In this document: one piece after another, positions 4,135 through 52,850 of the stretch | Numbering within the stretch: the first letter of the stretch is position 1 | How the letters are laid out: every line of letters starts with the position of its first letter | From: Zoogloeaceae bacterium | GTDB taxonomy: Bacteria; Pseudomonadota; Gammaproteobacteria; Burkholderiales; Rhodocyclaceae | Direction of reading: 5' to 3' | Assembly (NCBI GenBank): GCA_015657735.1 | Contig: SSSX01000392.1 | Coordinates: 1-58,231 of the forward strand | DNA: 58,231 bases | The notes under the pieces: model-generated | Database searches by the model: none | What the model saw: only the letters and a program-made list of their open reading frames with translations | Told to the model about the DNA's origin: nothing | Program-made: the position numbers and the translations under genes

Positions 4135-4464
4135 TCAGTGCCCGCCGCGAACCGCGTTGCGCAGGCCCGCCCAGCCCTCGGCGCGCGGTGCCGGCGCGAG
4201 GCCGATGTCGCGGCCCAGGTCGCGGGTGAAGGTGGTGCACGCCACGCCGGGACGCCCGTCGATGAGCACGCTGCAGGTGTTGCAGGCGCCGGCGTGGCAG
4301 TGGAAGGCGCGCTGCAGCAGCGGCGGCAGCGCGCCGTGGATTTCACGCAGCGCGCGCAGCACGGTCATGCCGGCGGTCTCGATCAGTTCGAAATCGTAGC
4401 TCCGGCCATCGACGGCCGGCAGATGCAGCCTGATGATGCGGCAATGGGACAAGGGGGCGTTCAT
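4135..4464 (-). CDS. Stand-alone 2Fe-2S protein resembling the N-terminal domain of SdhB/FrdB
   Basis: GMTVLRAL then C-HAGA-C-NT-C-x11-C (CHAGACNTCSVLIDGRPGVAC); GGAG RBS upstream of ATG 4464; 109 aa. Confidence 0.7.
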   Translation of the reverse strand: MNAPLSHCRIIRLHLPAVDGRSYDFELIETAGMTVLRALREIHGALPPLLQRAFHCHAGACNTCSVLIDGRPGVACTTFTRDLGRDIGLAPAPRAEGWAGLRNAVRGGH

Positions 4465-5146: not shown

Positions 5147-6103
5147 TCAGCCGAGGCCCGCCGGCCCGGCGCAGCCGTCGTCCATTCCGTCGAGCTCGAT
5201 CTGGATGGTCGGATGGTGGATGTGGAAATGCCGTTCCAGCCCGCTCGCCACCGCGACCAGGAAAGCGTCGCCCGGATGGCCGCCGGGCATCACCAGATGC
5301 ACCGACAGCGCGGTTTCGGCGGTGCCGAGCGCCCACACGTGAAGGTCATGCACATTGCTGACCCCTGGCTGGCTGGCGAGCCAGGCGTGGACTTCGGCCA
5401 GATCGATGCCGTCGGGCACGCCGTCGAAGGCCAGGTGCAGCGACTGGCGGAACAGGCCCCAGGCGCCGGCGACGATGATCGCCGCGATGGCCAGACTGAC
5501 CGCCGGATCGAGCCAGCCCCAGCCGAAGCGCAGGTACAGCGCGCCGGCGGCGACCACCCCGAGCGACACCAGCGCATCGCCGGCCATGTGCAGGAAGGCC
5601 CCGCGGATGTTGAGGTCGGCCTTGCGGCCGGACATGAACAGCGCGGCGGTGAGGCCGTTGACGACCACCCCGCAGGCCGCCACGGCGATCACCGTCCACC
5701 CGCCGACCGGCTCGGGCGACTGCAGGCGCTGGAAGGCTTCGAGCGCCAGCGCCCCCATCGCGAACAGCAGCAGCATGCCGTTGGCCAGCGCGGCGAGGAT
5801 CGAGGCCCGCGCCCAGCCGTAGGTGCGCCGGTGGGTCGGCGGCAGGCGGCCGGCGGCGGCGGCGCCCCAGGCGAGGATCAGGCCGGCGACGTCGGACAGG
5901 TTGTGACCGGCGTCGGCGAGCAGCGCCAGCGAACCCGCCAGCCAGCCGAAGCCGGCTTCGACGACGACGAAACCGATGTTGAGGGCGATGCCGATCGCGA
6001 AGGCCCGGTCGTAGGACGCCGGACCATGAGGATGGCGGTGGCCGTGACCGTGGCCGGCGTGGTCGTGATGGTGGTCGTGGCCGCCGGCGTGGGCGTGGCT
6101 CAT
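5147..6103 (-). CDS. Cation diffusion facilitator (CzcD/ZitB-like Zn/Co/Cd exporter)
   Basis: His-rich N-terminus MSHAHAGGHDHHHDH; LLADAGHNLSD, AFLHMAGDA, VHDLHVW; ATGA overlap with the upstream nitroreductase stop. Confidence 0.9.
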   Translation of the reverse strand: MSHAHAGGHDHHHDHAGHGHGHRHPHGPASYDRAFAIGIALNIGFVVVEAGFGWLAGSLALLADAGHNLSDVAGLILAWGAAAAGRLPPTHRRTYGWARASILAALANGMLLLFAMGALALEAFQRLQSPEPVGGWTVIAVAACGVVVNGLTAALFMSGRKADLNIRGAFLHMAGDALVSLGVVAAGALYLRFGWGWLDPAVSLAIAAIIVAGAWGLFRQSLHLAFDGVPDGIDLAEVHAWLASQPGVSNVHDLHVWALGTAETALSVHLVMPGGHPGDAFLVAVASGLERHFHIHHPTIQIELDGMDDGCAGPAGLG

Positions 6104-7179
6104 CGGCCCGGCAGCATCAGCTCCTCGACGCTCTTGCGCAGCGAACGGGAGCGCGGCGCGTCGGAAACACCGACGCGGCAGAAGAAGGTCAGACCCTGGT
6201 CGGGGCCGAAGCCGCCGATGCGCTCGAACTCGCCGGCCAGCGCCAGCGCGCCGGCGGCAATCGCCGGCACCGCCGAGAAGGTTTGGCCGGCGCGGGCATA
6301 CCAGCGGAAGATCAGCGGCGTCATCTCGGGCTGCAGGTGCAGGCCGACCGCCGCGGCGGTGAGCCACAGGCGCTGCATCGCGATGCCGCCGCGGACATGC
6401 GCCTCGACGCCCTGCGCCGGCCGGTCGGGAACGATCAGCACGTGCGCGGCGCAGGCCAGCGCCGGAATGTAGTCGAGCTGGACGCGCGGCGCGATGGTGC
6501 CGCCGAGATACTTGTTGAAGAACTGCACCCGCCCCCAGCTGGCCATCACCCATTCCATCAGCCGCGCGGTGGCGCCGTCGACGCCGACCGCCTGCTCGGG
6601 AATGCGGTCCTTGCTGAAGCGGGTGCGCCACTCGATGATTTCCTTGTGCACCGGGTAGGCTTCCGGGCAGGTCAGGCGCAGGTAGGCGTTGCGCCACAGC
6701 AGGCCGGCAACCCGGCGGCGCTCGGCGCCCGACTCGAAGAAGCGCACCGCGTAGCCCGGCCCCGGCGCGGCGGCGAGGGCCGCGCGCTGTGCAGCGCTGA
6801 GCGGTGTGGTGCGCATCGGGCGGCGCTGCACGACGCGGCTTTCGATGAAGGGCAGCAGCGGGTCGGCGGCGAGGCCCGGCTGCGCAGCGAGACGCACGTC
6901 GAACACCGGCGCCTTGTCGCCGGCGCCGGCCCGCAGAGCCCAGGTGGCGGCGAGCCCCTCGCCGGTGGCGGCGATGCGCAGGGTTTCGAGCAGCGCGCCG
7001 TGGGCCATGTGGCTGGCGTGGCCGTTGAAGTCGTAGAGGCACCACTCGCGGGTGTCGTGGCCGTGGATCGCGAGGTGGTCGTCGGCGACGATCTCGAAGC
7101 GCCACGGCTGGGTGTTGTCGCCGCTCGGCGCCCAGCGCGCCAGGTCGAGGATCTTCAGCAGGGTGTCGCGGCTGGCCAT
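6100..7179 (-). CDS. Nitroreductase-fold FMN protein (Acg/MoeY-like)
   Basis: ARWAPSGDNTQPWRF, GALLETLRIAA, GIAMQRLWLTAAAVGLHLQP, C-terminal RSLR. Confidence 0.8.
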   Translation of the reverse strand: MASRDTLLKILDLARWAPSGDNTQPWRFEIVADDHLAIHGHDTREWCLYDFNGHASHMAHGALLETLRIAATGEGLAATWALRAGAGDKAPVFDVRLAAQPGLAADPLLPFIESRVVQRRPMRTTPLSAAQRAALAAAPGPGYAVRFFESGAERRRVAGLLWRNAYLRLTCPEAYPVHKEIIEWRTRFSKDRIPEQAVGVDGATARLMEWVMASWGRVQFFNKYLGGTIAPRVQLDYIPALACAAHVLIVPDRPAQGVEAHVRGGIAMQRLWLTAAAVGLHLQPEMTPLIFRWYARAGQTFSAVPAIAAGALALAGEFERIGGFGPDQGLTFFCRVGVSDAPRSRSLRKSVEELMLPGR

Positions 7180-7205
7180 CGGTCAGACTCCTCGGAAACG
7201 GAAAC

Positions 7206-8102
7206 TCAGGCCGTCTTGGCGAATTCGCCGCGGCGCATCGCGCGCAGCTGGCGGCGGGCGATGAACAGGCCGATCTGCTGGATCGGGTTGCGGTTGCCGC
7301 CGGGCCGCCAGGTTTTGACGTAGCGGTTGCGGTAGGCATCGAAGTGGAAGCCCCACGGCGCGCACAGCACCTTGCCGCGGCCGAGCAGGATCTTCAGCGA
7401 TTCGGTGGCCGTCACCCCGGCGCACAGCTGGCAGGCGGCGATGGTGCTGGGGCCGCGCTTGGCGTTGAAGTCGACCCGCGACGGATCGGCCAGGTAGCCG
7501 CGCTGCAGCATCGCCGGCGACAGGCCAAGCAGGAAGCGCACCGCCATCTCGTCGTCGTCGCAGCCGTCGAGGCGGAAGTATTCCTCGAACGACATCCGGC
7601 CGGGCAGGAAGGACAGCACCGCCGTGCCCATGCCCAGCGGCGCCGCGGTGACGGCCGGCACGCCAAGCCGGTGGCAGGCGTTGAAGGTGTCGCGGCGGGC
7701 GCGGAAAGCGAAGAAGTCGAGGCCGTCGACGTAAAGATCGACGCCGCCGAGAAAGTCGTCGAGGTTGCCGGCGTTCACACCCTGACCGAAGATGCGGATG
7801 TCGAGTTCGGGGTTGATGTCGCGCGCCATTGCGGCCATCACCTCGGCCTTCGGCCGGCCCACCGAGGACATCGAGGCGCCGGCCTGGCGGTTGAAGTTGA
7901 CGATGTCGAAGGTGTCCATGTCGGCGATGTTGAAGGCGCCGATGCCGAGGCGCACCAGCGTCAGCAGGTGCACGCCGCCGACACCGCCCATGCCGGCGAT
8001 CGCCACCCGCTTGCCGCGCAGCGCGGCCTGCTCGGCCTGGGTCACCCAGCCGATGTTGCGGGAGAAGGCTTCGTCATAACTGAATGCGCTGGCGTCAGAC
8101 AT
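7206..8102 (-). CDS. ThiF/E1-like adenylyltransferase
   Basis: FSRNIGW, VAIAGMGGVGG, DMDTFDIVNFNRQ, GRPKAE, DGLD; 298 aa from ATG 8102. Confidence 0.85.
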   Translation of the reverse strand: MSDASAFSYDEAFSRNIGWVTQAEQAALRGKRVAIAGMGGVGGVHLLTLVRLGIGAFNIADMDTFDIVNFNRQAGASMSSVGRPKAEVMAAMARDINPELDIRIFGQGVNAGNLDDFLGGVDLYVDGLDFFAFRARRDTFNACHRLGVPAVTAAPLGMGTAVLSFLPGRMSFEEYFRLDGCDDDEMAVRFLLGLSPAMLQRGYLADPSRVDFNAKRGPSTIAACQLCAGVTATESLKILLGRGKVLCAPWGFHFDAYRNRYVKTWRPGGNRNPIQQIGLFIARRQLRAMRRGEFAKTA

Positions 8103-8260
8103 GCACGTGTATCCGTCGGGCAGGGAAGCAGTATGATACGACAGTTCGGCGGGCTTCCCACGCAGCCGGGTCGCTCCGCCGCGTGCCGCGCCGGCGCTGC
8201 GCAAGCCCGCGCTTCCGGCCCTGTCCCCCGCCACCTCCACCCCGTCGTCCGCAGGCCGTC

Positions 8261-9475
8261 ATGTCGATCAAACTCGCCGTCCGCAACATCCTCCGCCAGA
8301 AGATCCGCACCGGGATGACCCTTGCCGCGATCATCTTCGGCGTGGTCAGCCTGGTGCTCGCCGGCGGCTTCGTGCAGGACATCTTCATCCAGCTCGGCGA
8401 AACCATCATCCATTCCCAGACCGGGCACCTGCAGCTGTTCAAGAAGGATTTTCTCGACAAGGGCACCCGCTACCCCGACCGCTTCCTGATCGACAAGCCG
8501 GACGACATCGCCCGCCGCATCGCCGGCCACCCCGAGGTGGACGCGGTGATGGGGCGGGTCTATTTTTCCGGCCTGGTGAACAACGGCCGCCGCGACCTGC
8601 CGATCGTCGGCGAAGGCGTCGAGCCCGACAAGGAAGCCAAGCTCGGCAGCTTCCTGAAGATCGTCGCCGGCAAGCAGCTGCACGACAAGGACGTGGACGG
8701 CATCCTGATCGGCCAGGGCGTCGCCCAGTCCCTCAACGTCAAGCCCGGCGACTCGCTGACGCTGGTCCTCAGCGCCGCCGAGGGCGCGATGAACACCCTC
8801 GATTTCCGCGTCGTCGGCATCTTCCAGAGCTTCTCGAAGGAATTCGACGCCCACGCGGTGCGCATCCCGCTGGCCGCCACCCACGAACTGCTGCAAACCC
8901 GTGGCGTCAACCAGATCGTCGTGGCGCTGCACCACACCGACGACACCGAGCGCATGCTCGCCGCCCTCGAGGCCGACTTCAAGGATGGCCCCTTCGACCT
9001 GCGCAGCTGGCGCACCCTCTCCGACTTCTACGACAAATCGGTGCAACTCTACGACGCCCAGTTCGGCGTGCTGCAGTTCATCATCCTGCTGATGGTGCTG
9101 CTGTCGGTGATCAACAGCGTCAACATGAGCGTCTTCGAGCGCCAGGGCGAATTCGGCACGATGCAGGCGATGGGCAACCGGCGCCGCGACATCATCCGGC
9201 TGATCGTCATCGAGTCGGCGATCATCGGCTTCGTCGGGGCGGTGATCGGCACCCTGCTCGGCATCGCGCTGGCGCTGATCATTTCGCGGATCGGCATCCC
9301 GATGCCGCCGCCGCCCAACGCCAACGTCGGCTACACCGCCTTCATCCGCGTCGTGCCGGCAACCGTGGCCGGCGCCTTCCTGGTCGGTTTCTTCGCCACC
9401 GTGCTGGCCTCGCTGTTTCCGGCATTCAAGGTCTCGCGGATTCCGGTCGTTGACGCCTTACGTCAGAACATTTGA
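8261..9475 (+). CDS. ABC transporter permease (FtsX/LolE/MacB-like)
   Basis: LAVRNILRQKIRT N-terminus, large periplasmic loop, ERQGEFGTMQAMG, three C-terminal TM helices, PVVDALR end. Confidence 0.85.
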   Translation: MSIKLAVRNILRQKIRTGMTLAAIIFGVVSLVLAGGFVQDIFIQLGETIIHSQTGHLQLFKKDFLDKGTRYPDRFLIDKPDDIARRIAGHPEVDAVMGRVYFSGLVNNGRRDLPIVGEGVEPDKEAKLGSFLKIVAGKQLHDKDVDGILIGQGVAQSLNVKPGDSLTLVLSAAEGAMNTLDFRVVGIFQSFSKEFDAHAVRIPLAATHELLQTRGVNQIVVALHHTDDTERMLAALEADFKDGPFDLRSWRTLSDFYDKSVQLYDAQFGVLQFIILLMVLLSVINSVNMSVFERQGEFGTMQAMGNRRRDIIRLIVIESAIIGFVGAVIGTLLGIALALIISRIGIPMPPPPNANVGYTAFIRVVPATVAGAFLVGFFATVLASLFPAFKVSRIPVVDALRQNI

Positions 9476-9492
9476 ACAGAGGCCGTGCTGCC

Positions 9493-10263
9493 ATGTCGTT
9501 ACTTGATCGATTCAGTCTGGGCGAAGGCTTCCGGAAATACTTCGAGGTCGTCGCCGCCTTCGACACCCCGCTGCGCAACGACGTCTACGGCATCCGCCAC
9601 GAGGTTTACTGCGAAGAACTCGGTTTCGAGCCGGTCCGCCCCGACCGGCTCGAAACCGACGACAACGACCGTCACAGCCTGCACTGCCTGATGCGCAGCT
9701 CGACCGAGCCGCGCACCCTGGTGGGCTGCAACCGCCTCGTGCTGGCGCGCCCCGAAGACCCGGCCCACCCGCTGCCCTTCGAGCACACCTGCCGCGCGAC
9801 CCTCGACCGCTCGATCATCGACCCGGCCAAAGAGCCCCGCGGCACCATCGCCGAAGTGTCGCGCCTCGCGGTGCGCGCCCACTACCGCCGCCGCAAGGGC
9901 GAAACCAAAACCGCGCTGGCGCTCAGCGACGACGATTTCGGCACCAAGGAACAGCCCCGCTTCCCGTACATCCCGATCGGCCTGTACCTGGCCGTCGTCG
10001 CGCTGGCCCGGCGGGAAGGCATCGAAACCCTGTTCATGCTCACCGAACCGCGCCTCGCCGACCACTTTTCGAAACTCGGCGTGAAGATCACCCAGATCGG
10101 CGGCCCGGTCGAGCACCGGGGCATCCGCGTGCCGTCGATGATGAGCGTCGACAGCGTCGTCAAGGGGCTGCGCTTCTTCGTCAGACCCATCTGGCGGGTC
10201 GTCCTCGAGGAGATCGAGGCCGGCTACTCCCCCGGCCGCCCGGCTTTCCTGCCGCCGGCCTGA
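9493..10263 (+). CDS. PEP-CTERM/exosortase-associated acyltransferase (ExoAT/FeeM-like N-acyl amino acid synthase, GNAT fold)
   Basis: VYGIRHEVYCEELGFE, ETDDNDRHSLHCL, AEVSRLAVRAHYRRRKGE, MLTEPRLA, GGPVEHRGIRVP. Confidence 0.8.
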   Translation: MSLLDRFSLGEGFRKYFEVVAAFDTPLRNDVYGIRHEVYCEELGFEPVRPDRLETDDNDRHSLHCLMRSSTEPRTLVGCNRLVLARPEDPAHPLPFEHTCRATLDRSIIDPAKEPRGTIAEVSRLAVRAHYRRRKGETKTALALSDDDFGTKEQPRFPYIPIGLYLAVVALARREGIETLFMLTEPRLADHFSKLGVKITQIGGPVEHRGIRVPSMMSVDSVVKGLRFFVRPIWRVVLEEIEAGYSPGRPAFLPPA

Positions 10264-17570: not shown

Positions 17571-18563
17571 ATGATTCCACCCCGCATGCTCCGCGCCGGC
17601 CTGCTGCTCGCCGGCCTGTTCACCGCCTCGGCTGCCTCGGCCGGCTATTCCGGCCTGTACGTGTTCGGTGACAGCGACTCCGACGCCGGCAATCTGGCGG
17701 CCATGGGGGTGCCGCTGCAGACCGGCGCCGACATCGTCTCGCCGGTGTCCGTCGCGGGGGCCTACAGCCCGTCGCTGACGGCGTCCAACGGCGCGGTGTG
17801 GTCCCAGCAACTGAGCGCCCGGCTCGGCCTCGGCCCGCTCACGGCGTCGCTGGCCGGCGGCACCGACTACGCGACCAGCGGCGCCTTCCTGAGCACTACC
17901 GCGCTCAGCCCGCTGCCCAGCGTCAGCCAGCAGGTGGACAGCTTCGTCGCCCAGCCGGGCGCGGCATCCGGTTCGGCGCTGTATGTGATCGAAGGCGGCA
18001 CCAACGATTTCCGCATGGCGGCCAAGGATGCGCTGCAGGTGATCATGGGTGGCGGCGACCCGACCGGCGTGATCACCGCCTTCATCGCCCAGTACGTCAG
18101 CGAGACGGCCAGCATGATCGGCAAGCTGAAGGCCGACGGCGCCCAGCACATCCTCGTCTGGAACCTGCCCGACGTGACGCGTTCGCCGGTCTATATCGCG
18201 ACGACCCCGTCGGCCTCGCTGCTGAGTGCCATGCAGGCGGCGCTGATGGCGGCCAACGCCACGCTGCAGGCGCAGCTCGGCGGCATCCCGGGCGTGACCA
18301 TCCTCGACGCCTTCGGCATCCTCACCGATCTGGTCGACAACCCCGGCCAGCACGGTCTGGCCAACGTCAGCGACCCCTGCTACGACGGCACCTGCGACAC
18401 CTCGACCAACCTGTTCTGGGATGGCATGCACCTCACCAGCGCCGGCTACCAGGCCTTTGCCGACGCCGCCTACGACGCCGTCGCGATCCCCGAACCGGGG
18501 ACCCTGGCGCTGAGCCTCGCCGGCCTGGCACTCACCGGACGGCGCCTGCGCCGCCGCGGCTGA
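17571..18563 (+). CDS. Secreted SGNH/GDSL hydrolase with C-terminal PEP-CTERM sorting signal
   Basis: Signal peptide; block I FGDSDSDAG, block III GGTND, block V FWDGMHLT; ends IPEPGTLALSLAGLALTGRRLRRRG. Confidence 0.88.
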   Translation: MIPPRMLRAGLLLAGLFTASAASAGYSGLYVFGDSDSDAGNLAAMGVPLQTGADIVSPVSVAGAYSPSLTASNGAVWSQQLSARLGLGPLTASLAGGTDYATSGAFLSTTALSPLPSVSQQVDSFVAQPGAASGSALYVIEGGTNDFRMAAKDALQVIMGGGDPTGVITAFIAQYVSETASMIGKLKADGAQHILVWNLPDVTRSPVYIATTPSASLLSAMQAALMAANATLQAQLGGIPGVTILDAFGILTDLVDNPGQHGLANVSDPCYDGTCDTSTNLFWDGMHLTSAGYQAFADAAYDAVAIPEPGTLALSLAGLALTGRRLRRRG

Positions 18564-34791: not shown

Positions 34792-35652
34792 ATGTGTGAA
34801 ATAGTCCCTCTGAAAAAGCAATTCCTGCCTCAAGTTTTACTCTGCGCTGCCGCCGCGTGCCTCGTGGCGCAGCCGGCGCAGGCCCAGCTGCGCGCCGAAT
34901 CCGTCCCCGGCGGAGTGGCCGAAATCGCCGTCGCGCCGGCCGCCGCGCCGCGTCCGCAAGTCCGTTTCGGCGGCCATCCGGTGTTGCTGCAGCAGCGCCG
35001 CGACGGCTGGTACGCGCTGGTCGGCCTGCCCCTCGACACCCCGGTCGGCGAACAGCAGCTGGAACTCGGCCCCGAAGGCGACAGCCGTCCGCTGCCCTTC
35101 ACGGTGGCGGCAAAAAACTATCCGGTGCAGAAGCTGACCATCAAGAATCCCAAAATGGTCACCCCCGACCCGGCCGACCTGGCCCGCATCGAGGCCGAAC
35201 GCGCGCGCCAGATCGACATCCGCAGCCGTTTTCGCGACGTGCCGGTGAGCCGCACCGATCTTGCGCTGCCGGCCGACGGCCGCCTGTCGAGCCGCTTCGG
35301 CCTGCGCCGGGTGTTCAACGGCGAACCCCGCGCGCCCCACACCGGCCTCGACGTGGCGGTGCCCGCCGGCACCCCGATCCGCGCCCCGGCCGACGGCGTC
35401 GTGAGCCTGGTGGACGACCTCTACTTCAACGGCAAGACGGTGTTCGTCGACCACGGCCAGGGCTTCGTCAGCATGGTCTGCCATCTGGAGCAGGCCGGCG
35501 TCCAAGCCGGCCAGACGGTGCGCCGCGGCGAGGTGGTCGGGCGCTCCGGCAGCAGCGGCCGCGCCACCGGCCCGCACCTGCACTGGAGCGTCTATCTGAA
35601 CGGCGCGGCGGTCGACCCGGCCCTCTTCATCGGCCCGCCGCCAGCGCGTTGA
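34792..35652 (+). CDS. M23 family metallopeptidase (start uncertain)
   Basis: SRFGLRRVFNGEPRAPHTGLD (HxxxD), GRATGPHLHW (HxH); N-terminal VPGGVA domain. Confidence 0.88.
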   Translation: MCEIVPLKKQFLPQVLLCAAAACLVAQPAQAQLRAESVPGGVAEIAVAPAAAPRPQVRFGGHPVLLQQRRDGWYALVGLPLDTPVGEQQLELGPEGDSRPLPFTVAAKNYPVQKLTIKNPKMVTPDPADLARIEAERARQIDIRSRFRDVPVSRTDLALPADGRLSSRFGLRRVFNGEPRAPHTGLDVAVPAGTPIRAPADGVVSLVDDLYFNGKTVFVDHGQGFVSMVCHLEQAGVQAGQTVRRGEVVGRSGSSGRATGPHLHWSVYLNGAAVDPALFIGPPPAR

Positions 35653-36415
35653 TCGCCCGCGCCGCGGCGAACAGCCCGACGCAGGCGGTCACCGTCACCA
35701 CCGAACCGAAGCCGGCGCAGTTGAGGCCGGCCGGCCCGCCCACCGACACCTCGCAGGCCACGTCGGTGGCCGGGTAGCGCAGCGGCTCGGTGGAATACAC
35801 CGCCTCGACGCCGAACTTCTTCTTCGGATCGCGGGCAAAACCATGGGCCTTGCGCAGCTGGCCGCGCACCTTGGCCAGCAGCGGGTCCTGGATCGTCCGC
35901 GCCAGGTCGTCCACGCGGATCTGCGTCGGATCGATCTGCCCGCCGGCCGCTCCGCAGGTGACGACCGGCACCCCCGCGCGGCGGCAGAAGGCGACCATCG
36001 CCACCTTCACGCGCACCGCATCGATGGCATCGACGACGTAGTCGAAGCCGGCGCCGAGCAGTTCGGCGCAGTTGTCGGCGGTGACGAAATCGTCCACCAC
36101 CCGCACCCGGCAATCCGGGCTGAAACCGGCGATCCGCTCGCGCATCGCGTCCACCTTGGCCTGCCCGAGCGTCGCGTCGCCGGCGTGGATCTGGCGGTTG
36201 ATGTTCGACTCCGCGACGTGGTCGAGGTCGATCAGCGTGAGCTGCCCGACGCCGCTGCGCGCCAGCCCCTCGGCCGCCCACGAGCCGACCCCGCCGATAC
36301 CGACCACGCACACCCGCGCCGCCGCCAGCCGCGCCCGCCCGGCCTCGCCGTAGAGGCGCGCAATGCCGCCGAAGCGGCGGGAGTCGTCGGAGGCATCGGG
36401 AGCGGTCGGTTCCAT
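35627..36415 (-). CDS. tcdA: tRNA threonylcarbamoyladenosine dehydratase
   Basis: RRFGGIARLYG, VVGIGGVGSWAAEGLARSG, ESNINRQIH, DPLLAKVR, VYSTE, LNCAGFGS. Confidence 0.88.
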   Translation of the reverse strand: MEPTAPDASDDSRRFGGIARLYGEAGRARLAAARVCVVGIGGVGSWAAEGLARSGVGQLTLIDLDHVAESNINRQIHAGDATLGQAKVDAMRERIAGFSPDCRVRVVDDFVTADNCAELLGAGFDYVVDAIDAVRVKVAMVAFCRRAGVPVVTCGAAGGQIDPTQIRVDDLARTIQDPLLAKVRGQLRKAHGFARDPKKKFGVEAVYSTEPLRYPATDVACEVSVGGPAGLNCAGFGSVVTVTACVGLFAAARAINALAAGR

Positions 36416-36513
36416 GGCGGCACACAGTGAGTCTGAGTCGGGGCGCCCAAATATAACCGAGCAGTGGATAATTCCGCCTTCCACACACCACGTCGCGCCG
36501 GCGGCGCCTGCCC

Positions 36514-37170: not shown

Positions 37171-37347
37171 AGCGCCGCCGCGCCGATTGAAAAATCTGCG
37201 CAGCGGCCGGCACTTTCCCATCACCGACGAGGACTACGCCGCAACCCGGCGCCCGGCCCGGTGGCAGAATACGCGCCGGCCCCGCCGTCCCGCTCGCGCG
37301 GGCGGCCCGGCCGATGCCAACCAACCGGGCAACAGGACAGCCGCGTC

Positions 37348-38463
37348 ATGCACAGAACAATCAGGGGATTCGACGGAATACGCGCACTGGCGGTGATCGC
37401 CGTCGTCCTGACCCACCTCGGCGCGTATGTGGCGCTGGGCGACGCCGGGCTGCTGCCGCGCGCGCTGCTGCCGATGATCCACGGCGGCACCGGCGTGCAG
37501 GCCTTCTTCGTGCTGTCGGGCTTCCTGATCACCACGCTGCTGATCAACGAGCACCGCGCCAGCGGCACCATCTCGATCCGCAACTTCATCCTGCGCCGCA
37601 CGCTGCGGATCTTCCCGCTCTACATCCTGTTCCTCGTCATCGCCACGCTGCTGCACGTGTTCGGCCACAACGTCACGTCGTGGGATTCCCTGCTCTACGC
37701 CTACCTCTATTCCTACAACTTCGTCCCGCGGGAGCTCTACACCGGCTTCATGGGACACACCTGGTCGCTGGCCGTCGAGGAACACTTCTATCTCGTCTGG
37801 CCGACGGTCTTCCTGCTGCTCTTCGGGCGGCGCCGGCCGGCCCTGGTGGCATTGGTCGTGACCTTCATCGCCAGCGCCCCCTTCGTCCACCTGCTGCTGA
37901 TCAAGGCCGGGCTGTCCGAGCGCTACTTCGTCGACCGCTGGTCCTTCGTGGCCGGCGCCGCCATCGCGGTGGGCTGCCTGCTGGCCCTCGCGATCGGCAG
38001 CGAGCGCAGCGCCGCCGGCCCGCTGCGACGCCTGGCCGGCCACCCCGCCAGCCTGGCCATCGGCGCCCTGCTCTACGCCAATTCCCTCTACCTCACCAGC
38101 GACTCGTGGTTCGTGCACAACATCGGCGCCAACTACCTGCGCACCTTCGGCATCGCGCTGGCCATCGCGTGGATCTACTTCAACCCGGCGAGCCGCCTCG
38201 TGGCGCTGCTCGAAGTGCCGCCGCTCAAGTACATCGGCCTCATTTCCTACGGCATCTACATGTACCAGGGCCTGTTCCTCGACACCGGACCGGCACGTGA
38301 CCCCGGCCAGAGCTGGCCGCCCGACCCGGCCACCGGCTTCGTGCTGCTGCTCGTCGCCGCGCCGCTGTCCTACCACTACTTCGAGAAACCCTTCCTGCGC
38401 CTCAAGCACCGCTACGCCGCAGCCAAGGCGCCGGCCCCGCTCGCCGCCGCGACAGCCCGCTGA
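37348..38463 (+). CDS. Acyltransferase family 3 (OafA-like O-acyltransferase)
   Basis: DGIRALAV, FFVLSGFLIT, RRTLRIFP, HTWSLAVEEHFY, ISYGIY, SYHYFEKP. Confidence 0.9.
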   Translation: MHRTIRGFDGIRALAVIAVVLTHLGAYVALGDAGLLPRALLPMIHGGTGVQAFFVLSGFLITTLLINEHRASGTISIRNFILRRTLRIFPLYILFLVIATLLHVFGHNVTSWDSLLYAYLYSYNFVPRELYTGFMGHTWSLAVEEHFYLVWPTVFLLLFGRRRPALVALVVTFIASAPFVHLLLIKAGLSERYFVDRWSFVAGAAIAVGCLLALAIGSERSAAGPLRRLAGHPASLAIGALLYANSLYLTSDSWFVHNIGANYLRTFGIALAIAWIYFNPASRLVALLEVPPLKYIGLISYGIYMYQGLFLDTGPARDPGQSWPPDPATGFVLLLVAAPLSYHYFEKPFLRLKHRYAAAKAPAPLAAATAR

Positions 38464-38576
38464 GGCCCGCCGGGCCACCCCGGCCCTCGGCAGAATTACC
38501 CCCCCTTTTCCCCGCTGTTCCGCCCTAAGCCCCTTCCCCGCCACGCATAACATCGTCTCCATCCCCCATTGGAGCG

Positions 38577-39350
38577 ATGATGAAAGCCGTGATCCTCGCG
38601 GGTGGCCTGGGCACCCGTATCAGCGAAGAGACCGTCAACCGGCCCAAGCCGATGATCGGCATCGGCGGCCGGCCGATCCTCTGGCACATCATGAAGATCT
38701 ACTCCAGCCACGGCATCCACGATTTCGTGATCTGCTGCGGCTACATGGGTTACGTGATCAAGGAGTACTTCGCCAACTACTTCCTGCACATGTCGGACGT
38801 CACCTTCGACATGACCCACAACCGCATGGAAATCCACGAGCGCCACGCCGAACCGTGGCGCGTCACCCTCGTCGACACCGGCGACAACACCCAGACCGGC
38901 GGCCGCCTCGGCCGCGTGCGGCAATACCTGCAGGACGAGGAAGCCTTCTGCTTCACCTATGGCGACGGCGTCGCCGACATCGACATCGGCGCCGAGATCG
39001 CCTTCCACCGCGCCCACGGCAAGCTCGCCACGGTCGCCGCGGTGCAGCCGCCGGGGCGCTTCGGGGCCCTCGAACTGCAGGGCGACGACGTCCGTGCCTT
39101 CGTCGAAAAACCCCTCGGCGACGGCGGTTTCATCAACGGCGGCTTCTTCGTGCTGTCGCCCACCGTGCTCGACTTCATCGGCGACGACCAGACCATCTTC
39201 GAAGGCCCGGTCATCGGCGAACTGATCGCCCGCCAACAACTCGCCGCCTTCCAGCACACCGGCTTCTGGCGCCCGATGGACACCCTGCGCGACAAGACCC
39301 TCCTCGAAGACCTGTGGAACAGCGGAGCCGCCCCATGGAAAAGCTGGTGA
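38577..39350 (+). CDS. rfbF: Glucose-1-phosphate cytidylyltransferase
   Basis: [39 protein letters not shown]-x-PMDTLRDK, APWKSW. Confidence 0.93.
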
Positions 39351-40402
39351 ATCCGCACTTCTGGGCCGGCCGGCGGGTTTTCGTCACCGGCCACACCGGC
39401 TTCAAGGGCGGCTGGCTCAGCCTGTGGCTGCAGCAGCTCGGCGCCGACGTGCATGGCTACGCGCTGCCGCCGGCGACGCTGCCGGCGCTCTTCGACGAAG
39501 CCCGCGTCGCCGACGGCATGCAGTCCACCTTCGGCGACGTGCGCGACTACCCGGCCCTCGCCGAAGCCGTGGCCGCCGCCCGCCCCGAGATCGTCCTGCA
39601 CCTGGCGGCCCAGCCGCTGGTGCCGCTGTCGTACGCCGAACCGGTCGCCACCTTCGCCACCAACGCGATGGGCACCGTGCACCTGCTCGAAGCCGTCCGC
39701 CACACCCCCGGCGTGCGCGCGGTGGTAGTGGTGAGCAGCGACAAGTGCTACGAAAACCGCGAATGGGTGTGGGGCTACCGCGAGACCGACCCGCTCGGCG
39801 GCCACGACCCCTACTCGGCGAGCAAGGGCTGCACCGAGCTGATCGTCGCCGCCTACCGCCGCGCCTTCCTGGCCGAACTCGGCATTCCGGTGGCCAGCGC
39901 CCGCGCCGGCAACGTCATCGGCGGCGGCGACTGGACCACCAGCCGGCTGGTCCCCGACGTGCTCGCCGCCTTCGCCGCCGGCACCCCGGTCAGCCTGCGC
40001 AACCCCGGCGCGATCCGGCCCTGGCAGCATGTCCTCGAACCGCTGTCGGGCTACCTCGCGCTGGCCCAGCGGCTCGCCGACGAGGGCGCGGCGTGGGCCG
40101 ACGCGTGGAACTTCGGCCCCCACGAGGCCGACGCCCGAACCGTCACCTGGGTCGTCGACCGCCTCGCCCGCGGCTGGGGCCCCGACGCCCGGTGGACCAC
40201 CGCCATCGAAGCCCTGCCCCACGAAGCCCACACCCTCAAGCTCGACTGCAGCAAGGCCCACAGCCGCCTCGGCTGGCAGCCGCGCTGGAACGCCGACACC
40301 GCCATCGCCCGCAGCCTGGCCTGGCACCAGGCGTGGCGCAGCGGCGCCGACATGCAGCGCTACACCCTCGACGAAATCGCCGCCTTCGGAAGCTCCTCAT
40401 GA
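39347..40402 (+). CDS. rfbG: CDP-glucose 4,6-dehydratase
   Basis: [49 protein letters not shown]. Confidence 0.93.
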
Positions 40403-41772
40403 CCCTCCTGCGCCAGACTCTCCGCGCCGATGCCGACGGCCGCCTGCAGCTCGATCTGGCGGCCCGGCCCGACCTCGCCGGCCAGACCCTCGAAGTCATC
40501 GTCCGCCCCGCCCGGCCGGACGCCGCCGCCGGCGCATGGCGGCCCGGCATCGACCCGGTGCCGCCGTCCGGCAAGGTCGTCGGCGACGCCGAGAAGGACG
40601 CCATGATCGACGCCGCACTCGACGCCTGGCTCACCACCGGCCGCTTCAACGATGCCTTCGAAGCGCGCCTGGCCCGCTTCGTCGGCGTCGACCACGCACT
40701 GACCGTCAACTCCGGCTCGTCGGCCAACCTCGTCGCCTTCTCGACGCTCACGTCGCCCAAACTGGGCGAGCGGGCGATCCGCCCCGGCGACGAAGTCATC
40801 ACCGTCGCCGCCGGCTTCCCGACCACCGTCAACCCGATCCTCCAGAACGGCGCGGTGCCGGTCTTCGTCGACGTCACGCTGCCCGGCTACAACATCGACG
40901 TGGCGCTGCTCGAAGCGGCGCTGTCGCCGCGCACCAAGGCGATCGTGATCGCCCACACCCTCGGCAACCCCTTCGACCTCGACGCCGTCTGCGCCTTCGC
41001 CAAAGCCCACGGCCTGTGGCTGGTCGAAGACTGCTGCGACGCCCTCGGCTCGACCTGGCGCGGCCGCAAGGTCGGCACCTTCGGCGACCTCGCCACGCTG
41101 TCGTTCTACCCCGCCCACCACATCACGATGGGCGAAGGCGGCGCCGTGCTGACGAGCGACCCGCAGCTCCGCCAGATCGCCGAATCCTTCCGCGACTGGG
41201 GCCGCGACTGCTGGTGCAAGCCCGGCTGCGACAACACCTGCGGCAAGCGCTTCGGCTGGCAGCTCGGCAGCCTGCCGGCCGGCTACGACCACAAATACAC
41301 CTACAGCCACATCGGCTACAACCTCAAGATCACCGACATGCAGGCCGCCTGCGGGCTGGCCCAGCTCGACCGGCTCGAGGGCTTCATCGCCGCCCGCAAA
41401 CGCAACTTCGCCCACCTCACCGAACGCCTCGCCGCCGCCCGCGACTTCCTGATCCTGCCCGAAGCCACCCCGGGCAGCGACCCGGCCTGGTTCGGCTACC
41501 CGGTCACCTTGCGGCCGGAAGCCGGCGTCAATCGCGTCGACCTGCTCGAATACCTCGACCAGCACCGGATCGGCACCCGCCTGCTGTTCGCCGGCAATCT
41601 CGTCCGCCAGCCGTCGATGGCCGGGCGCAACTTCCGCGTCGTCGGCGCGCTGCCGGTGGCCGACCGCATCATGCGCGACACCTTCTGGATCGGCCTGTGG
41701 CCCGGGCTCAGCACCGCCCAGCTCGACTACGCGGCCGACATGACCAGCCAGTTCCTCGGCGTCGGACTGTAG
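40399..41772 (+). CDS. rfbH: CDP-4-keto-6-deoxyglucose 3-dehydrase (E1, DdhC/RfbH)
   Basis: [28 protein letters not shown] (His in place of the usual PLP Lys), [13 protein letters not shown] cysteine cluster, YDHKY. Confidence 0.92.
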
Positions 41773-41787
41773 CCCGGCACCCGCGCC

Positions 41788-42987
41788 ATGCTCGCTGCAC
41801 TCCACCGCCCCTGCCCGCTGTGCGGCAACCGCGACCCGGAAGTGCTGGCCGAACTCGTCCTGCCCCAGCCGAGCAGTTCGCCGCTGCCGGCCGGCTACCG
41901 GCTGGTGGCCTGCGCGCCCTGCGACTTCGCGTGGGCCGACACGCCGGCCCCGCAGAGCGCCTACGACCGCTACTACCGCGACCTCGCCAAGTACGGCGGC
42001 CCCACCGGCACCGGAGCCGGCCAGGACCCGGCCGACCAGCGTCGCCTGGAAACCCTCGCCGGGCGTCTGGAACGCGATCTGCCGGGCCACGGCGCCGCCA
42101 TCCTCGACATCGGCTGCGGCGCCGGCGGGCTGCTGCAGGTGCTCGCCGCCCGCGGCTATCCGCACGCCGAAGGACTCGACCCCGATCCGGCGGCGGTTCT
42201 GCTGGCCAACCGGAAAGGCCTCGATGTCAGCGAGGGCCTCGCCAGCCAGGCCCCGGCCCGCTACGCCGGCCGGCAGTTCGACCTCATCGTGCTGTCCCAT
42301 GTCGCCGAACACCTGTGCGACCTCGGCTGGCTGCGCGGGCTGCCGGCCCTGCTCGCCCCCGGCGGCGCCCTTTACATCGAAGTCCCCGACCCCCGCGGCT
42401 ACCGCTGCGAGCCACGCCCGCCCTTCTATTATTTCGACAGCGAGCACATCAACCACTTCAGCCCGCTGGCGCTGGCCCGCCTGTTCACCGCCATCGGCCT
42501 GCCCGGCCAGCGCTTCGTCGACTGCACCCTCACCCTGCCCGACGGCAGCCCCTATCCGGCCTTCGCCGGCATCGGCCGGGCGGCGGCGGCGCCGTCACTG
42601 CCGCCGCCGCCCGCAGCGCTCGCGGAGCTGCGCGCCTACCTCGCCGACAGCCGGCAGCGCGCCGCCGGCGCCGTCGCCATCGACCCGCCGCTGCACGCCA
42701 GCGCCCCGCTGCTGGTGTGGGGCGCCGGCTCGTGGGCCCAGCGCCTGCTCGGCCAGGGGGCGATTCCGCTGGACCGGGTGCGCGCCTTCCTCGACGGTGC
42801 CCCGAACAAGCAGGGCCACACCCTCGCCGGCAAGCCCGTCGTTGCCCCCGCCTTGGGGTTACATCGTCACCCGGAGGCACAAGTTCTGGTCTGCGTCGCC
42901 GTAAACCCTCACCAGATCGAGGCCGAAGTCGGCCGCATCGAGCCGGGCCACCCCCGCAGCCTGCACTTCATCACCGAACGCAAATGA
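41788..42987 (+). CDS. Class I SAM-dependent methyltransferase with N-terminal CxxC...CxxC and C-terminal Rossmann-like domain
   Basis: CPLC, CAPC, ILDIGCGAG, SHVAEHL, YIEVPD, EHINHFS, VWGAG. Confidence 0.8.
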   Translation: MLAALHRPCPLCGNRDPEVLAELVLPQPSSSPLPAGYRLVACAPCDFAWADTPAPQSAYDRYYRDLAKYGGPTGTGAGQDPADQRRLETLAGRLERDLPGHGAAILDIGCGAGGLLQVLAARGYPHAEGLDPDPAAVLLANRKGLDVSEGLASQAPARYAGRQFDLIVLSHVAEHLCDLGWLRGLPALLAPGGALYIEVPDPRGYRCEPRPPFYYFDSEHINHFSPLALARLFTAIGLPGQRFVDCTLTLPDGSPYPAFAGIGRAAAAPSLPPPPAALAELRAYLADSRQRAAGAVAIDPPLHASAPLLVWGAGSWAQRLLGQGAIPLDRVRAFLDGAPNKQGHTLAGKPVVAPALGLHRHPEAQVLVCVAVNPHQIEAEVGRIEPGHPRSLHFITERK

Positions 42988-44786
42988 ATCTTTCCGAACG
43001 CATCGCCGACTGGCTGGCCGACCACGGCATCGAGCAGGTGTTCACCGTCACCGGCGGCGGCGCCATGTATCTCAACCAGGCCCTCGCCAACCACCCGCGC
43101 CTCACCTGCACCTTCATGCACCACGAGCAGGCCTGTGCGATGGCCGCCGAAGGCTACGCGCGCATCGCCGGCAAGCCGGCGGTGGTGATGGTCACCACCG
43201 GCCCCGGCGGCATCAACGCCCTCAACGGCGTGTTCGGCGCCTACACCGACTCGATCCCGATGCTGGTCATCGGCGGTCAGGTCAAGCGCGCCACCTGCCT
43301 CGACTACACCCCGGTGCCCGGCCTGCGCCAGCTCGGCGACCAGGAAGGCCCGGTCCTCGCGATGGCCCGGCCGGTCACCAAGCTGGCGGAAAGCGTCGCC
43401 AGCCCGGAAGCCCTGGCCGAACTGCTGCCCCGCGCCCTCGCCACCGCCGTCGGCGGACGCCCCGGCCCGGTGTGGCTCGACATTCCCCTCGATGTGCAGG
43501 CCGCCGAGTGCGGCCCGCTGCCGCCCGCCGCGCTGCTGCCGCCAGCCGCCCCGGCTGGCCTCGACGAAGCCTGCCGGCACGTCGCCGCGCGCCTGCGCGC
43601 CGCCCACCGCCCGCTGATCCTCGCCGGCACCGGCGTGCGCCTGGCCGCCGCCGAAAAGGCCCTGCTGGCCTTCGCCGAGGCCCACGGCATCCCGGTCGCC
43701 ACCGCCTGGACCCACGACCTCATCGCCAGCGACCATCCGCTCTTCGCCGGCCGCCCCGGTACCATCGGCACCCGCGCCGGCAATTTCTGCGCCCAGAACG
43801 CCGACTGCGTGATCGTCGTCGGCTCCCGCCTCAACATCCGCCAGGTCAGCTACAACTGGGACAGCTTCGCCCGCCACGCCTTCGTCGCCCACGTCGACGT
43901 GGACCCGGCCGAGCTGGCCAAACCCTTCGCCCAGCCCGATCTGCGCATCCCCTGCGATGCCGGTCTGTTCCTCGACGGCCTCGCCGCCGCCTGCGCCGCC
44001 GGCCTGCCCGACTTCTCGCCGTGGGCCGCCTGGTGCCGCGACATCCGCGCCCGCTACCCGGTCGCCGGCGCGCCCGCCGACGGCCCCCGCCTGCACCCCT
44101 ACGCGCTGGTCGAACGCGTGTTCAGCCAGCTGCGCGACGACGACATCGTCGTCTGCGGCAACGCCTCGGCGTGCATCCTGCCGTTCCAGGCCGGCCGGCT
44201 GAAGGCCGGTCAGCGGCTGTTCAGCAATTCCGGCTCGGCGTCGATGGGCTACGACCTGCCGGCAGCCATCGGCGCCGCCCGCGCCGCCGGCCGGCGGCGG
44301 GTGATCTGCTTCGCCGGCGACGGCAGCCTGCAGATGAACGTGCAGGAACTGCAGACCCTCAAGACCCTCGGCCTCGACGTGGTCATCGTGCTCATCGACA
44401 ACGGCGGCTACCTCTCGATCCGCCAGACCCACGACAACTTCTTCGGCCGCATCGTCGGCGCCACCCCGGCCTCGGGAGTCGACTTTCCCGACTTCGCGCA
44501 GGTCGCTCGCGCCTACGGCCTGAGCGCCATCACCATCGCCTCGCCGGCCGACCTGCCGGCGCTCGACGCCACCCTCGCGCGCCGCGGGCCGATCCTGATC
44601 TCGGCCCACGTCGACCCGGCACCCGGCTTCGAACCGCGCATCAAGTCGCGCGCACTGCCCGAAGGCGGCTTCGCGACCCCTGAACTCGACGACATGTTCC
44701 CCTTCCTGCCGCCTGCCGAACTGGCCGCCGTGCGCGCCGAGGCCGCCGGCCTGCAGGCGCTCCCCCCGAAAGGAATGTCCGCATGA
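42984..44786 (+). CDS. Thiamine diphosphate-dependent enzyme (YerE/acetolactate-synthase-like carboligase)
   Basis: TGGGAMYLN, HHEQACAMAAEGYAR, TTGPGGIN, GQVKR, SMGYDLPAAIG, GDGSLQMNVQELQT...DNGGYLSI. Confidence 0.88.
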   Translation: MNLSERIADWLADHGIEQVFTVTGGGAMYLNQALANHPRLTCTFMHHEQACAMAAEGYARIAGKPAVVMVTTGPGGINALNGVFGAYTDSIPMLVIGGQVKRATCLDYTPVPGLRQLGDQEGPVLAMARPVTKLAESVASPEALAELLPRALATAVGGRPGPVWLDIPLDVQAAECGPLPPAALLPPAAPAGLDEACRHVAARLRAAHRPLILAGTGVRLAAAEKALLAFAEAHGIPVATAWTHDLIASDHPLFAGRPGTIGTRAGNFCAQNADCVIVVGSRLNIRQVSYNWDSFARHAFVAHVDVDPAELAKPFAQPDLRIPCDAGLFLDGLAAACAAGLPDFSPWAAWCRDIRARYPVAGAPADGPRLHPYALVERVFSQLRDDDIVVCGNASACILPFQAGRLKAGQRLFSNSGSASMGYDLPAAIGAARAAGRRRVICFAGDGSLQMNVQELQTLKTLGLDVVIVLIDNGGYLSIRQTHDNFFGRIVGATPASGVDFPDFAQVARAYGLSAITIASPADLPALDATLARRGPILISAHVDPAPGFEPRIKSRALPEGGFATPELDDMFPFLPPAELAAVRAEAAGLQALPPKGMSA

Positions 44787-45883: not shown

Positions 45884-45893
45884 GGTCTGCATC

Positions 45894-48021: not shown

Positions 48022-48035
48022 TCCTGACTGCCGCC

Positions 48036-51668: not shown

Positions 51669-51741
51669 AGGGCGTCGCACTCCACCCTGAAAGCATATTG
51701 CCGACCGGCCGGAAATCCCGGCCGCTTCGTGATTTTGGTGC

Positions 51742-51768
51742 TAAAGCTTTGATTTTCTGCGCCGCTAT
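51742..51768 (+). promoter_or_regulatory. Sigma-28 promoter, distal
   Basis: TAAA-N15-GCCGCTAT compared with consensus TAAA-N15-GCCGATAA. Confidence 0.55.
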
Positions 51769-51836
51769 CACAAGCCAAGCGGTAGTCCGGCAATATTTTC
51801 AACCAGCACATAAAATCAAAAAAGTCAACGATTTTC

Positions 51837-51863
51837 TAAAGTCCTTCCGGCCAGTTCCGTTAA
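51837..51863 (+). promoter_or_regulatory. Sigma-28 promoter, proximal to fliC
   Basis: TAAA-N15-TCCGTTAA, ending 94 nt upstream of the fliC ATG. Confidence 0.65.
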
Positions 51864-51956
51864 TGATTTCAACGGCGGTTGCCTTACACACACCGGGCAA
51901 GGCGAACCAAAGTTAAGCCTAAACGCTTATCTTGAACGGAATTAAGGAGAATCAAA

Positions 51957-52781: not shown

Positions 52782-52805
52782 GACGATTCAACCGTAACCC
52801 GGCGC

Positions 52806-52832
52806 GCGCTGCCACCGTAACGGTGGCAGCGC
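52806..52832 (+). terminator. Strong hairpin between fliC and flaG (no U-tract; mRNA stabiliser or partial terminator)
   Basis: GCGCTGCCACCG-taa-CGGTGGCAGCGC, a perfect 12-bp stem. Confidence 0.6.
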
Positions 52833-52850
52833 CGTCGGCACAAAGGGGAG

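What the first reader, a model, noticed from the sequence alone, without database searches (positions are those of the whole stretch)
6100..10263. Split ThiF + nitroreductase operon facing an N-acyl amino acid synthase: candidate two-protein oxazolone-synthetase-like cluster
Seen: thiF (7206-8102) and a nitroreductase-fold gene (6100-7179) lie 26 nt apart on the minus strand, divergent from an ABC permease and an ExoAT/FeeM-like acyltransferase. No sulfur carrier, YcaO or precursor peptide is nearby. Known: the OxzAB system pairs an N-acyltransferase with a fused ThiF-nitroreductase that cyclises and oxidises N-acyl amino acids to oxazolones, and ExoAT enzymes make long-chain N-acyl amino acids and track with PEP-CTERM genomes. 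Inference: this locus is an unfused version with its own lipid-type permease. It may make an N-acyl-amino-acid-derived heterocycle, or activate acyl amino acids for envelope or PEP-CTERM protein modification.
Basis: partly seen in the sequence, partly recalled or inferred. Interest (0 to 1): 0.8.

Follow-up and report, generated by a model that had tools for sequence, protein, structure and literature searches.

The report
Split acyl-oxazolone genes tied to exosortase
Four genes in a Zoogloea-like bacterium likely make a fatty-acylated amino-acid lipid by an already published three-enzyme route and likely help export it; the less familiar point is that, in the genomes sampled, the activating enzyme occurs almost only where the PEP-CTERM surface-protein sorting system is present.

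Summary
In detail: an FDO-type nitroreductase and a PRK08223 ThiF lie 26 nt apart, facing a LolE/MacB-type permease and an ExoAT acyltransferase; the closest named relatives are Zoogloea. The oxazolone reading is probably right but not new. A split acyltransferase + ThiF + FDO pathway is characterised (TyzABC), similar clusters are proposed in Massilia and Thalassotalea, and fused relatives are 65-75% identical in the ThiF half.

Two corrections. The permease is half of a pair that tracks exosortase and acyltransferase, not ThiF, and sits here in only 5 of 31 congeners. The FDO is optional: none was found in 5 of 31 congeners or in 14 of 15 tested marine relatives, while ThiF and acyltransferase stay together.

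The ThiF co-occurs with an exosortase in 49 of 52 and 120 of 120 genomes in two samples. This keeps open that the activated acyl-amino acid is a donor for PEP-CTERM proteins or exopolysaccharide (about 30%). No activity was tested and the characterised enzymes could not be aligned. This scan noted the same module in other genomes before.

The parts
6100..7179 (-). Flavin-dependent oxidase (FDO, Acg-like monomeric nitroreductase fold), predicted N-acyl amino acid/oxazolone desaturase; optional member of the module
   Evidence: PF00881; PRK07877 profile 373-717 (E 4e-33, below cut-off); AF2 model pLDDT 87.9, best Foldseek hit Acg 2ymv E 4e-12, TMq 0.70; 40-58% identical to the C-half of 119 of 120 fused proteins
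7180..7205 (-). 26-nt spacer with GAGGAG ribosome-binding site for the FDO gene
   Evidence: sequence
7206..8102 (-). PRK08223-family ThiF/E1-like adenylyltransferase, predicted N-acyl amino acid activator and cyclase; core of the module
   Evidence: 473.6 bits vs cut-off 266; GxGGxG, D61, N69-x-N71-R72-Q73, K85, D126, D129 invariant in 16 homologues and aligned with TcdA/ThiF nucleotide-site motifs
8132..8146 (-). Conserved motif AACTGTCGTATCATA about 30 nt upstream of thiF, probably a -10-type promoter element of the divergent region (inferred)
   Evidence: CGTATCAT in 27 of 32 same-genus upstream regions, CGTATGAT in the other 5, absent in 4 of 4 other genera
8261..9475 (+). LolE/MacB-type ABC permease, one of two paralogues; the partner is on contig C891, the ATPase and LolA-like protein on C788
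   Evidence: MacB_PCD + FtsX; paralogue 40% identical; PF17131 and LolD-like ATPase on C788
9493..10263 (+). ExoAT (TIGR03694) acyltransferase, predicted N-acyl amino acid synthase
   Evidence: 249.3 bits vs cut-off 112; only over-cut-off copy in the assembly; a separate FeeM-type gene lies on C45

Best explanation
The four genes encode an ExoAT-family acyltransferase, a PRK08223 ThiF, an FDO-type flavoprotein and half of a LolCDE-like exporter, which likely make an acyl-oxazolone or dehydro-N-acyl-amino-acid lipid by the TyzABC/OxzAB route and likely deliver it to the exosortase/PEP-CTERM envelope layer. Shown here: gene identities, linkage, fused relatives and co-occurrence with exosortase. 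Inferred from the characterised systems: the acyltransferase joins a fatty acyl group to an amino acid (probably aromatic); ThiF adenylates the carboxylate with ATP and closes the oxazolone ring; the FDO desaturates it with FMN and O2; water opens the ring to the dehydro acid. Inferred from gene context only: the permease pair, ATPase, LolA-like carrier and DUF1302-like outer-membrane protein move the lipid outward, where it acts as a free envelope or floc-matrix lipid.
For: Same three enzyme classes as TyzA/TyzB/TyzC, with thiF-FDO in one operon on the strand opposite the acyltransferase; the TyzC subcluster (FDO-A23) is stated to include Betaproteobacteria (PMC10404671). Split clusters similar to TyzB/C are in Massilia kyonggiensis and Thalassotalea, producers of dehydro-N-acyl tyrosines (PMC12479983); a Massilia timonae ThiF is 69% identical to this one. 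120 listed fused proteins are 65-75% identical in the ThiF half and 119 carry an FDO half behind it; split and fused forms intermix on a tree. A FeeM-ThiF-FDO triple fusion lies between the XrtA locus and three PEP-CTERM genes on the D. vulgaris plasmid. [quoted passage not shown] All 34 genomes with the permease subfamily have an exosortase and 32 of 33 tested have a synthase. In two congeners the ATPase, LolA-like and DUF1302-like genes head the XrtA polysaccharide operon.
Against: No activity was measured. OxzB, TyzB, TyzC and TrzS sequences could not be fetched, so subfamily membership and their tested catalytic residues are unchecked; the FDO is below cut-off for every full-length family. 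ThiF plus acyltransferase persist without a detectable FDO in 5 of 31 congeners (97-100% complete), 8 of 52 order genomes and 14 of 15 tested marine genomes; a saturated oxazolone would simply hydrolyse back, so a free end product explains their retention poorly (inference). 30 of 52 ThiF genomes lack the permease subfamily and 12 of 34 permease genomes lack the ThiF. No oxazolone has been seen from the Massilia, Thalassotalea or Stieleria clusters. The assembly has a second, FeeM-type synthase that could be the real substrate source.
Confidence: 0.55

Rival explanations
1. The ThiF-activated N-acyl amino acid (adenylate or oxazolone) is not the end product but an acyl donor. It is transferred to an amine or hydroxyl of the exosortase system: a lipid or small amine that exosortase then uses to anchor PEP-CTERM proteins, the proteins themselves, or amino sugars of the exopolysaccharide. 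The FDO, methyltransferase and glycosyltransferase only tailor the group.
For: ThiF with exosortase in 49 of 52 genomes of the order and 120 of 120 in a marine family, with none in the 65 exosortase-negative genomes there. 12 of 12 stand-alone marine loci hold an ExoAT homologue and a PEP-CTERM gene, and 11 of 12 have no FDO nearby. FDO loss or replacement is scattered over the congener ThiF tree. The permease locus has a PEP-CTERM gene within 4 kb in 15 of 17 loci against about 0.1 per 16 kb in the own genome. An ExoAT mutant of Methylomonas LW13 loses its polysaccharide band (PMC11072679). Oxazolones are opened by acids and alcohols (PMC12856293).
Against: No acceptor or transferase was identified. 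Free dehydro acids and oxazolones are the only products reported for related clusters. TyzA plus TyzB without TyzC gave no detectable cyclised intermediate in vivo. 28 of 77 exosortase-A-like genomes of the order and 66 of 186 exosortase genomes of the marine family lack the ThiF, so it is not needed for sorting. In Rubrivivax the ThiF and ABC genes lie in the psc1 biofilm locus but were not hit by the 25 insertions mapped there (non-saturating; PMC3684757). The LW13 mutant also failed to grow in the gradient, so its phenotype is unspecific. The Mtb systems work without any exosortase (recalled). Kin are not independent in these counts.
Confidence: 0.3
2. The genes make a free secondary metabolite (signal, surfactant or antimicrobial oxazolone) and merely travel with exosortase islands; the permease carries something else, such as the plain N-acyl amino acid or processed PEP-CTERM proteins.
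For: OxzAB, TyzABC and TrzAS make free lipids with no known envelope role. In this window the genes lie far from the exosortase gene (contig C298). The permease is independent of ThiF among exosortase-A-like genomes (p=0.48). An exosortase-negative genome holds a distant fused form, 39% identical (L228).
Against: In the congeners the system is spread over three loci, yet ThiF and ExoAT are kept in 30-31 of 32 genomes at 74-92% identity, which hitch-hiking does not explain; 0 of 65 exosortase-negative marine genomes keep an over-cut-off ThiF.
Confidence: 0.12
3. The ThiF is a housekeeping E1-like enzyme (MoeB/ThiF sulfur-carrier activation or TcdA) or a RiPP enzyme, and the nitroreductase is an unrelated 'MoeY'.
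For: Database names of relatives say 'molybdopterin biosynthesis protein MoeY' or 'thiamine biosynthesis protein ThiF'; the best PDB matches are TcdA and ThiF.
Against: Those matches cover only the N-terminal nucleotide-binding half; MoeB, ThiF and TcdA models score 52-84 bits, far under cut-off; the genome has its own TcdA and a MoeB-like gene; no carrier or YcaO family rang in the window; 199 of 251 genomes of the order lack the family.
Confidence: 0.03

Closest known systems
TyzA/TyzB/TyzC (Rv2336, Rv2338c, Rv2337c) of Mycobacterium tuberculosis, C12:0-tyrazolone pathway (PMC10404671)
   Same: Separate ThiF and FDO genes in one operon, acyltransferase on the opposite strand, proteins of similar size (318/372 aa there, 298/359 here), Acg-like fold; the TyzC subcluster includes Betaproteobacteria.
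   Different: The acyltransferase here is TIGR03694 ExoAT; the neighbouring transporter is LolE/MacB-type rather than MmpL9; the genome has exosortase A and PEP-CTERM proteins. Direct sequence identity was not testable.
OxzAB of Pseudoalteromonas rubra and four other proteobacteria (10.1101/2020.06.11.147165); TrzAS (PMC12856293)
   Same: N-acyltransferase plus ThiF plus nitroreductase-fold oxidase, ThiF first; fused relatives of these very proteins are common.
   Different: Fused there, split here; no exporter or exosortase link appears in the parts read.
Proposed kyonggic acid, thalassotalic acid and stieleriacine clusters (Massilia kyonggiensis, Thalassotalea sp. PP2-459, Stieleria; PMC12479983)
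   Same: Split synthase + ThiF + nitroreductase in Gram-negative environmental bacteria; Massilia relatives of this ThiF are about 69% identical.
   Different: ThiF and nitroreductase roles are untested there, only dehydro acids were seen, and no permease is described in the sections read.
ExoAT / TIGR03694 acyltransferases linked to PEP-CTERM/exosortase (Craig, Cherry and Brady 2011; seen only as a citation in PMC11072679 and PMC4897644)
   Same: The acyltransferase is a full member and the genome has exosortase A and at least 12 PEP-CTERM domains.
   Different: Here the link extends to the ThiF, the FDO and an ABC/LolA-like exporter; whether the 2011 paper says so could not be checked.

Membership tests
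Acyl-oxazolone pathway (TyzABC/OxzAB/TrzAS) | ThiF adjacent or fused to an FDO and next to an N-acyltransferase | tested here: met
Acyl-oxazolone pathway (TyzABC/OxzAB/TrzAS) | ThiF keeps the ATP-binding and adenylation motifs and is not MoeB, ThiF or TcdA | tested here: met
   invariant motifs; family scores; separate TcdA and MoeB-like genes
Acyl-oxazolone pathway (TyzABC/OxzAB/TrzAS) | Oxidase has the monomeric Acg-like FDO fold | tested here: met
   AF2 model and Foldseek, Acg 2ymv first at E 4e-12, next hit 4e-5
Acyl-oxazolone pathway (TyzABC/OxzAB/TrzAS) | Sequences fall in the TyzB/OxzB ThiF subcluster and FDO-A (A23/A8), with TrzS D217, R540, Q651 equivalents | not testable with these tools
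   no tool returned the characterised sequences; the supplement of PMC10404671 lists no members; PRK07877 match is below cut-off
Acyl-oxazolone pathway (TyzABC/OxzAB/TrzAS) | ATP- and O2-dependent formation of acyl-oxazolone | not testable with these tools
   needs enzyme assay
OxzB di-domain synthetase in the strict sense | ThiF and nitroreductase in one polypeptide | tested here: not met
   stop codon, 26-nt gap and own ribosome-binding site; separate genes 21-100 nt apart in 17 congeners
PRK08223 / NF006077 ThiF family | Score above curated cut-off | tested here: met
   473.6 vs 266 bits
ExoAT (TIGR03694) | Score above cut-off, in a genome with exosortase and PEP-CTERM proteins | tested here: met
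   249.3 vs 112 bits; exosortase A 267 vs 208 bits; 12 PEP-CTERM matches
LolCDE lipoprotein-release transporter | LolC/LolE equivalog score above cut-off | tested here: not met
   118 vs 362 bits on TIGR02212; same architecture, with a second permease, ATPase and LolA-like partner elsewhere
RiPP (YcaO/TOMM, MccB, PaaA) | YcaO or precursor peptide in the cluster | tested here: inconclusive
   no YcaO among ORFs scanned; short precursors are not excluded, but no conserved short ORF family stood out around ThiF (ORFs of 90 aa or more only)

The most novel reading that the evidence does not exclude
ExoAT plus the PRK08223 ThiF form the missing chemistry of the exosortase A system: they make an activated N-acyl amino acid that is covalently handed to PEP-CTERM proteins, their anchor lipid or the exopolysaccharide, turning soluble polymer into cell-bound floc matrix. 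The known free oxazolones and dehydro-N-acyl tyrosines would then be tailored offshoots or hydrolysed leftovers, and the Lol-like ABC system the carrier of the lipid or of lipidated proteins.
Probability: 0.3. Interest if true: 0.8.

Novelty: new member of a known kind. Interest (0 to 1): 0.42.

Why it matters
As an oxazolone pathway it adds one more member to a family with characterised split and fused examples. Its value is in context. The physiological role of acyl-oxazolones is stated to be unresolved (PMC12856293), and what PEP-CTERM proteins become attached to is, to my knowledge, also unresolved (recalled). The near-strict dependence of this ThiF on exosortase, with the oxidase optional, joins the two questions and makes them testable with a few deletions in a floc-forming Zoogloea, a genus central to activated-sludge settling.

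Tried and rejected
Craig et al. 2011 is not held. PDB sequence searches found no solved member of these subfamilies. RNA evidence: two metatranscriptome runs of one study hold 94% of sampled words, but as contigs that cover all 30 bins of a 17-kb stretch, so expression, strand and level are not shown. Own slips: the FeeM query was the wrong ORF (redone); several loci in the alignment had wrong coordinates (redone); the TcdA row in the tree was a shadow frame and is disregarded (TcdA identified), and that tree's bootstrap had not settled. No over-cut-off floc_PepA and no DUF1302-like partner were found in the own assembly, which has 900 contigs and is 92.5% complete; C788 ends just past the ATPase, where that gene lies in congeners. 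'FDO absent in 9 congeners' was rejected after a profile search found divergent FDOs in 4 of them. Literature searches oxazolone + PEP-CTERM (1 paper, unrelated) and PEP-CTERM + ThiF (3 papers, one gene table read) found no statement of the link; most subscription papers and the bioRxiv supplement of the OxzB paper could not be seen and may contain it.
Full report
Observation. The ThiF is a full member of PRK08223 (473.6 bits, cut-off 266) and scores 52-84 bits on MoeB, ThiF and TcdA models. The acyltransferase is a full TIGR03694 ExoAT. The permease has MacB_PCD and FtsX domains. The oxidase matches the FDO part of the Rv1355c family and Acg below cut-off; its AlphaFold model (pLDDT 87.9, 9-row alignment) has Acg 2ymv as clear best match. 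The genome's TcdA is at window 35627-36484 and a MoeB-like gene is on C63. The closest named ThiF relatives, 86-92% identical, are mostly titled Zoogloea.

What is known. I read parts 1-3 of 5 of the OxzB preprint (supplement closed): OxzA makes N-acyl tyrosine and fused OxzB turns it into an oxazolone with ATP. I read the abstract, Results, Discussion and supplement text of PMC10404671: TyzA, TyzB and TyzC do the same as three separate proteins, tyzBC lie on the strand opposite tyzA, and the 83-member TyzC subcluster includes Betaproteobacteria, over half beside a ThiF gene. PMC12479983 (abstract, sections 6 and 10) proposes split clusters in Massilia, Thalassotalea and Stieleria, where only ring-open acids were found. 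PMC12856293 (passages, sections 7 and 8) shows cyclisation before desaturation in TrzS, either order in Tyz, and ring opening by acid or alcohol. PMC12596934, PMC4897644, PMC9850573 and PMC8776678 were seen as passages. So the 'unfused version' is already characterised.

Fusion evidence. A search for longer relatives gave 1916 hits; the 120 listed are 65-75% identical to the ThiF, and 119 carry an FDO half 40-58% identical to this oxidase, always behind the ThiF. On the Nitratidesulfovibrio vulgaris Hildenborough plasmid a 989-aa protein joins a FeeM-like domain, the ThiF (50%) and an FDO, between the XrtA polysaccharide genes and three PEP-CTERM genes.

Within the genus. ThiF was found in 31 of 32 congeners; the miss is 77% complete. 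ExoAT faces it in 30 of 31 loci, the FDO follows it in 17, and the permease lies between in 5. Of the other 14, five have a 55-57% FDO and four a divergent FDO at the permease locus, and five (G004, G013, G017, G019, G025; 97-100% complete) gave no match to a nine-row profile. These states are scattered on the ThiF tree, though 13 of 36 inner branches are open. The permease is usually a tandem pair near secA-argJ, with a PEP-CTERM gene within 4 kb in 15 of the 17 such loci fetched (of 30 congeners with the gene) and a variable set of FDO, methyltransferase, glycosyltransferase and acetyltransferase genes. In G022 and G025 the ATPase, LolA-like and DUF1302-like genes sit at the head of the XrtA polysaccharide operon. 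Thauera phenylacetica and one Rhodocyclaceae record show the fuller order ExoAT, permease, permease | thiF, FDO, so the window looks like a partial retention of that layout (inference).

Across the order. In 251 genomes at least 90% complete, 52 have the ThiF, 104 an exosortase and 77 a strong exosortase-A-like match; 49 of the 52 are among those 77. The 44 genomes with a strong FDO match all have the ThiF. The 34 with the permease subfamily all have an exosortase but only 22 have the ThiF, and among the 77 the two are not associated (p=0.48). The cut-offs for 'strong' (1e-60, 1e-22, 1e-70) were set by me after seeing the score gaps; four weak FDO matches and 15 weak permease matches were left out. 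In 80 of the 82 genomes positive for any marker, 50 of 51 ThiF genomes had an ExoAT or FeeM synthase (43 within 12 kb), as did 32 of 33 permease genomes (26 within 12 kb); 11 of the 12 permease genomes without ThiF have ExoAT. The exporter therefore follows the synthase and exosortase, not the ThiF. Kin are not independent, so p-values overstate.

A second family. In 251 genomes of the family of G290 (record titled Alteromonas ponticola), 120 have an over-cut-off ThiF; all 120 have an exosortase, and none of the 65 without one does. Exosortase is common there (186 of 251). Of 15 top-scoring ThiF genomes tested, 14 gave no FDO match and one a weak match that proved real, so divergent FDOs can be missed. 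With a broader 20-row profile, 11 of 12 stand-alone loci (11-20 kb each, chosen from top hits, not at random) still had no FDO, while all 12 had an ExoAT homologue and a PEP-CTERM gene. Completeness figures were not shown for these genomes.

Mechanism. For this genome, which has the FDO, the most likely chemistry is the Tyz route: acylation, adenylation and ring closure, desaturation, giving an acyl-oxazolone or its ring-open dehydro acid (inferred; amino acid and chain length unknown). The context says the product serves the exosortase/PEP-CTERM layer. I put a free exported lipid first (0.55) because free lipids are the only products reported. I give a covalent-donor role 0.3 because ThiF and synthase are kept without the FDO, where a saturated oxazolone would hydrolyse back to substrate. 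Genetic hints are mixed: an ExoAT mutant of Methylomonas LW13 loses its polysaccharide band but also fails to grow in the gradient (PMC11072679, passages and section 20), and in Rubrivivax the ThiF and ABC genes lie inside the psc1 biofilm locus but were not among the genes hit by 25 insertions there (PMC3684757, passages and section 16).

Verdict. A real, conserved module and a new member of a known kind. The exosortase dependence was not found in print by two searches, but Craig et al. 2011 could not be read. Earlier notes of this scan reached the same reading in other genomes; my reading was set before I saw them, and they are not counted as support. Interest 0.42; the donor hypothesis would merit about 0.8 if shown.

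Noticed in passing
window 5147-6103 (-): A CDF-family cation efflux gene starts on an ATGA overlap with the FDO stop codon, so it is probably co-transcribed; no functional link was sought.
   Followed up: partly
window 4135-4464 (-): A lone 109-aa 2Fe-2S (Fer2_3) ORF; many congeners carry a 659-aa and a 272-aa gene of succinate/fumarate-reductase type in this neighbourhood (naming from sequence appearance), which the window lacks here.
   Followed up: no
window 17571-18563 (+): GDSL lipase/acylhydrolase with a PEP-CTERM-like tail (IPEP, hydrophobic stretch, basic end), 7 kb from the module; a surface acyl-hydrolase could act on acylated envelope material.
   Followed up: no
L146-L162 (congener secA-argJ region); own genome L169:97-921: A hypervariable cassette: a lineage-specific PEP-CTERM gene with swapped tailoring genes (FDO, SAM methyltransferase, EryCIII-like glycosyltransferase, hexapeptide acetyltransferase, an apparent GMC-type oxidoreductase) around the permease pair, reminiscent of pilin or flagellin glycosylation islands.
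   Followed up: partly
L228 (G307:C41): Distant fused ThiF-FDO (39% identical, below the PRK08223 cut-off) in a genome with no exosortase match and no PEP-CTERM gene nearby; may represent a lineage freed from the sorting system.
   Followed up: no
L171:8801-12864 (Bdellovibrio plasmid AP029178.1): ABC ATPase, a permease 32% identical to the window's and a ThiF 47% identical, in one run on a 48-kb plasmid: the ThiF-permease link outside Proteobacteria.
   Followed up: partly
L179:1784-2560 (own contig C45): A second, FeeM-type N-acyl amino acid synthase, unlinked to the module, between genes that look like queG and murI.
   Followed up: no
window 37261-57000: Flagellin locus with a glycosylation island (acyltransferase-3, nucleotidyl transferase, FkbM methyltransferase, NeuB, 1502-aa GT2) upstream of fliC, flaG, fliD, fliS.
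   Followed up: no
PMC12479983: Stieleriacine C has a D-amino acid; epimerisation through a saturated oxazolone would give a ThiF a purpose without desaturation (my inference).
   Followed up: no
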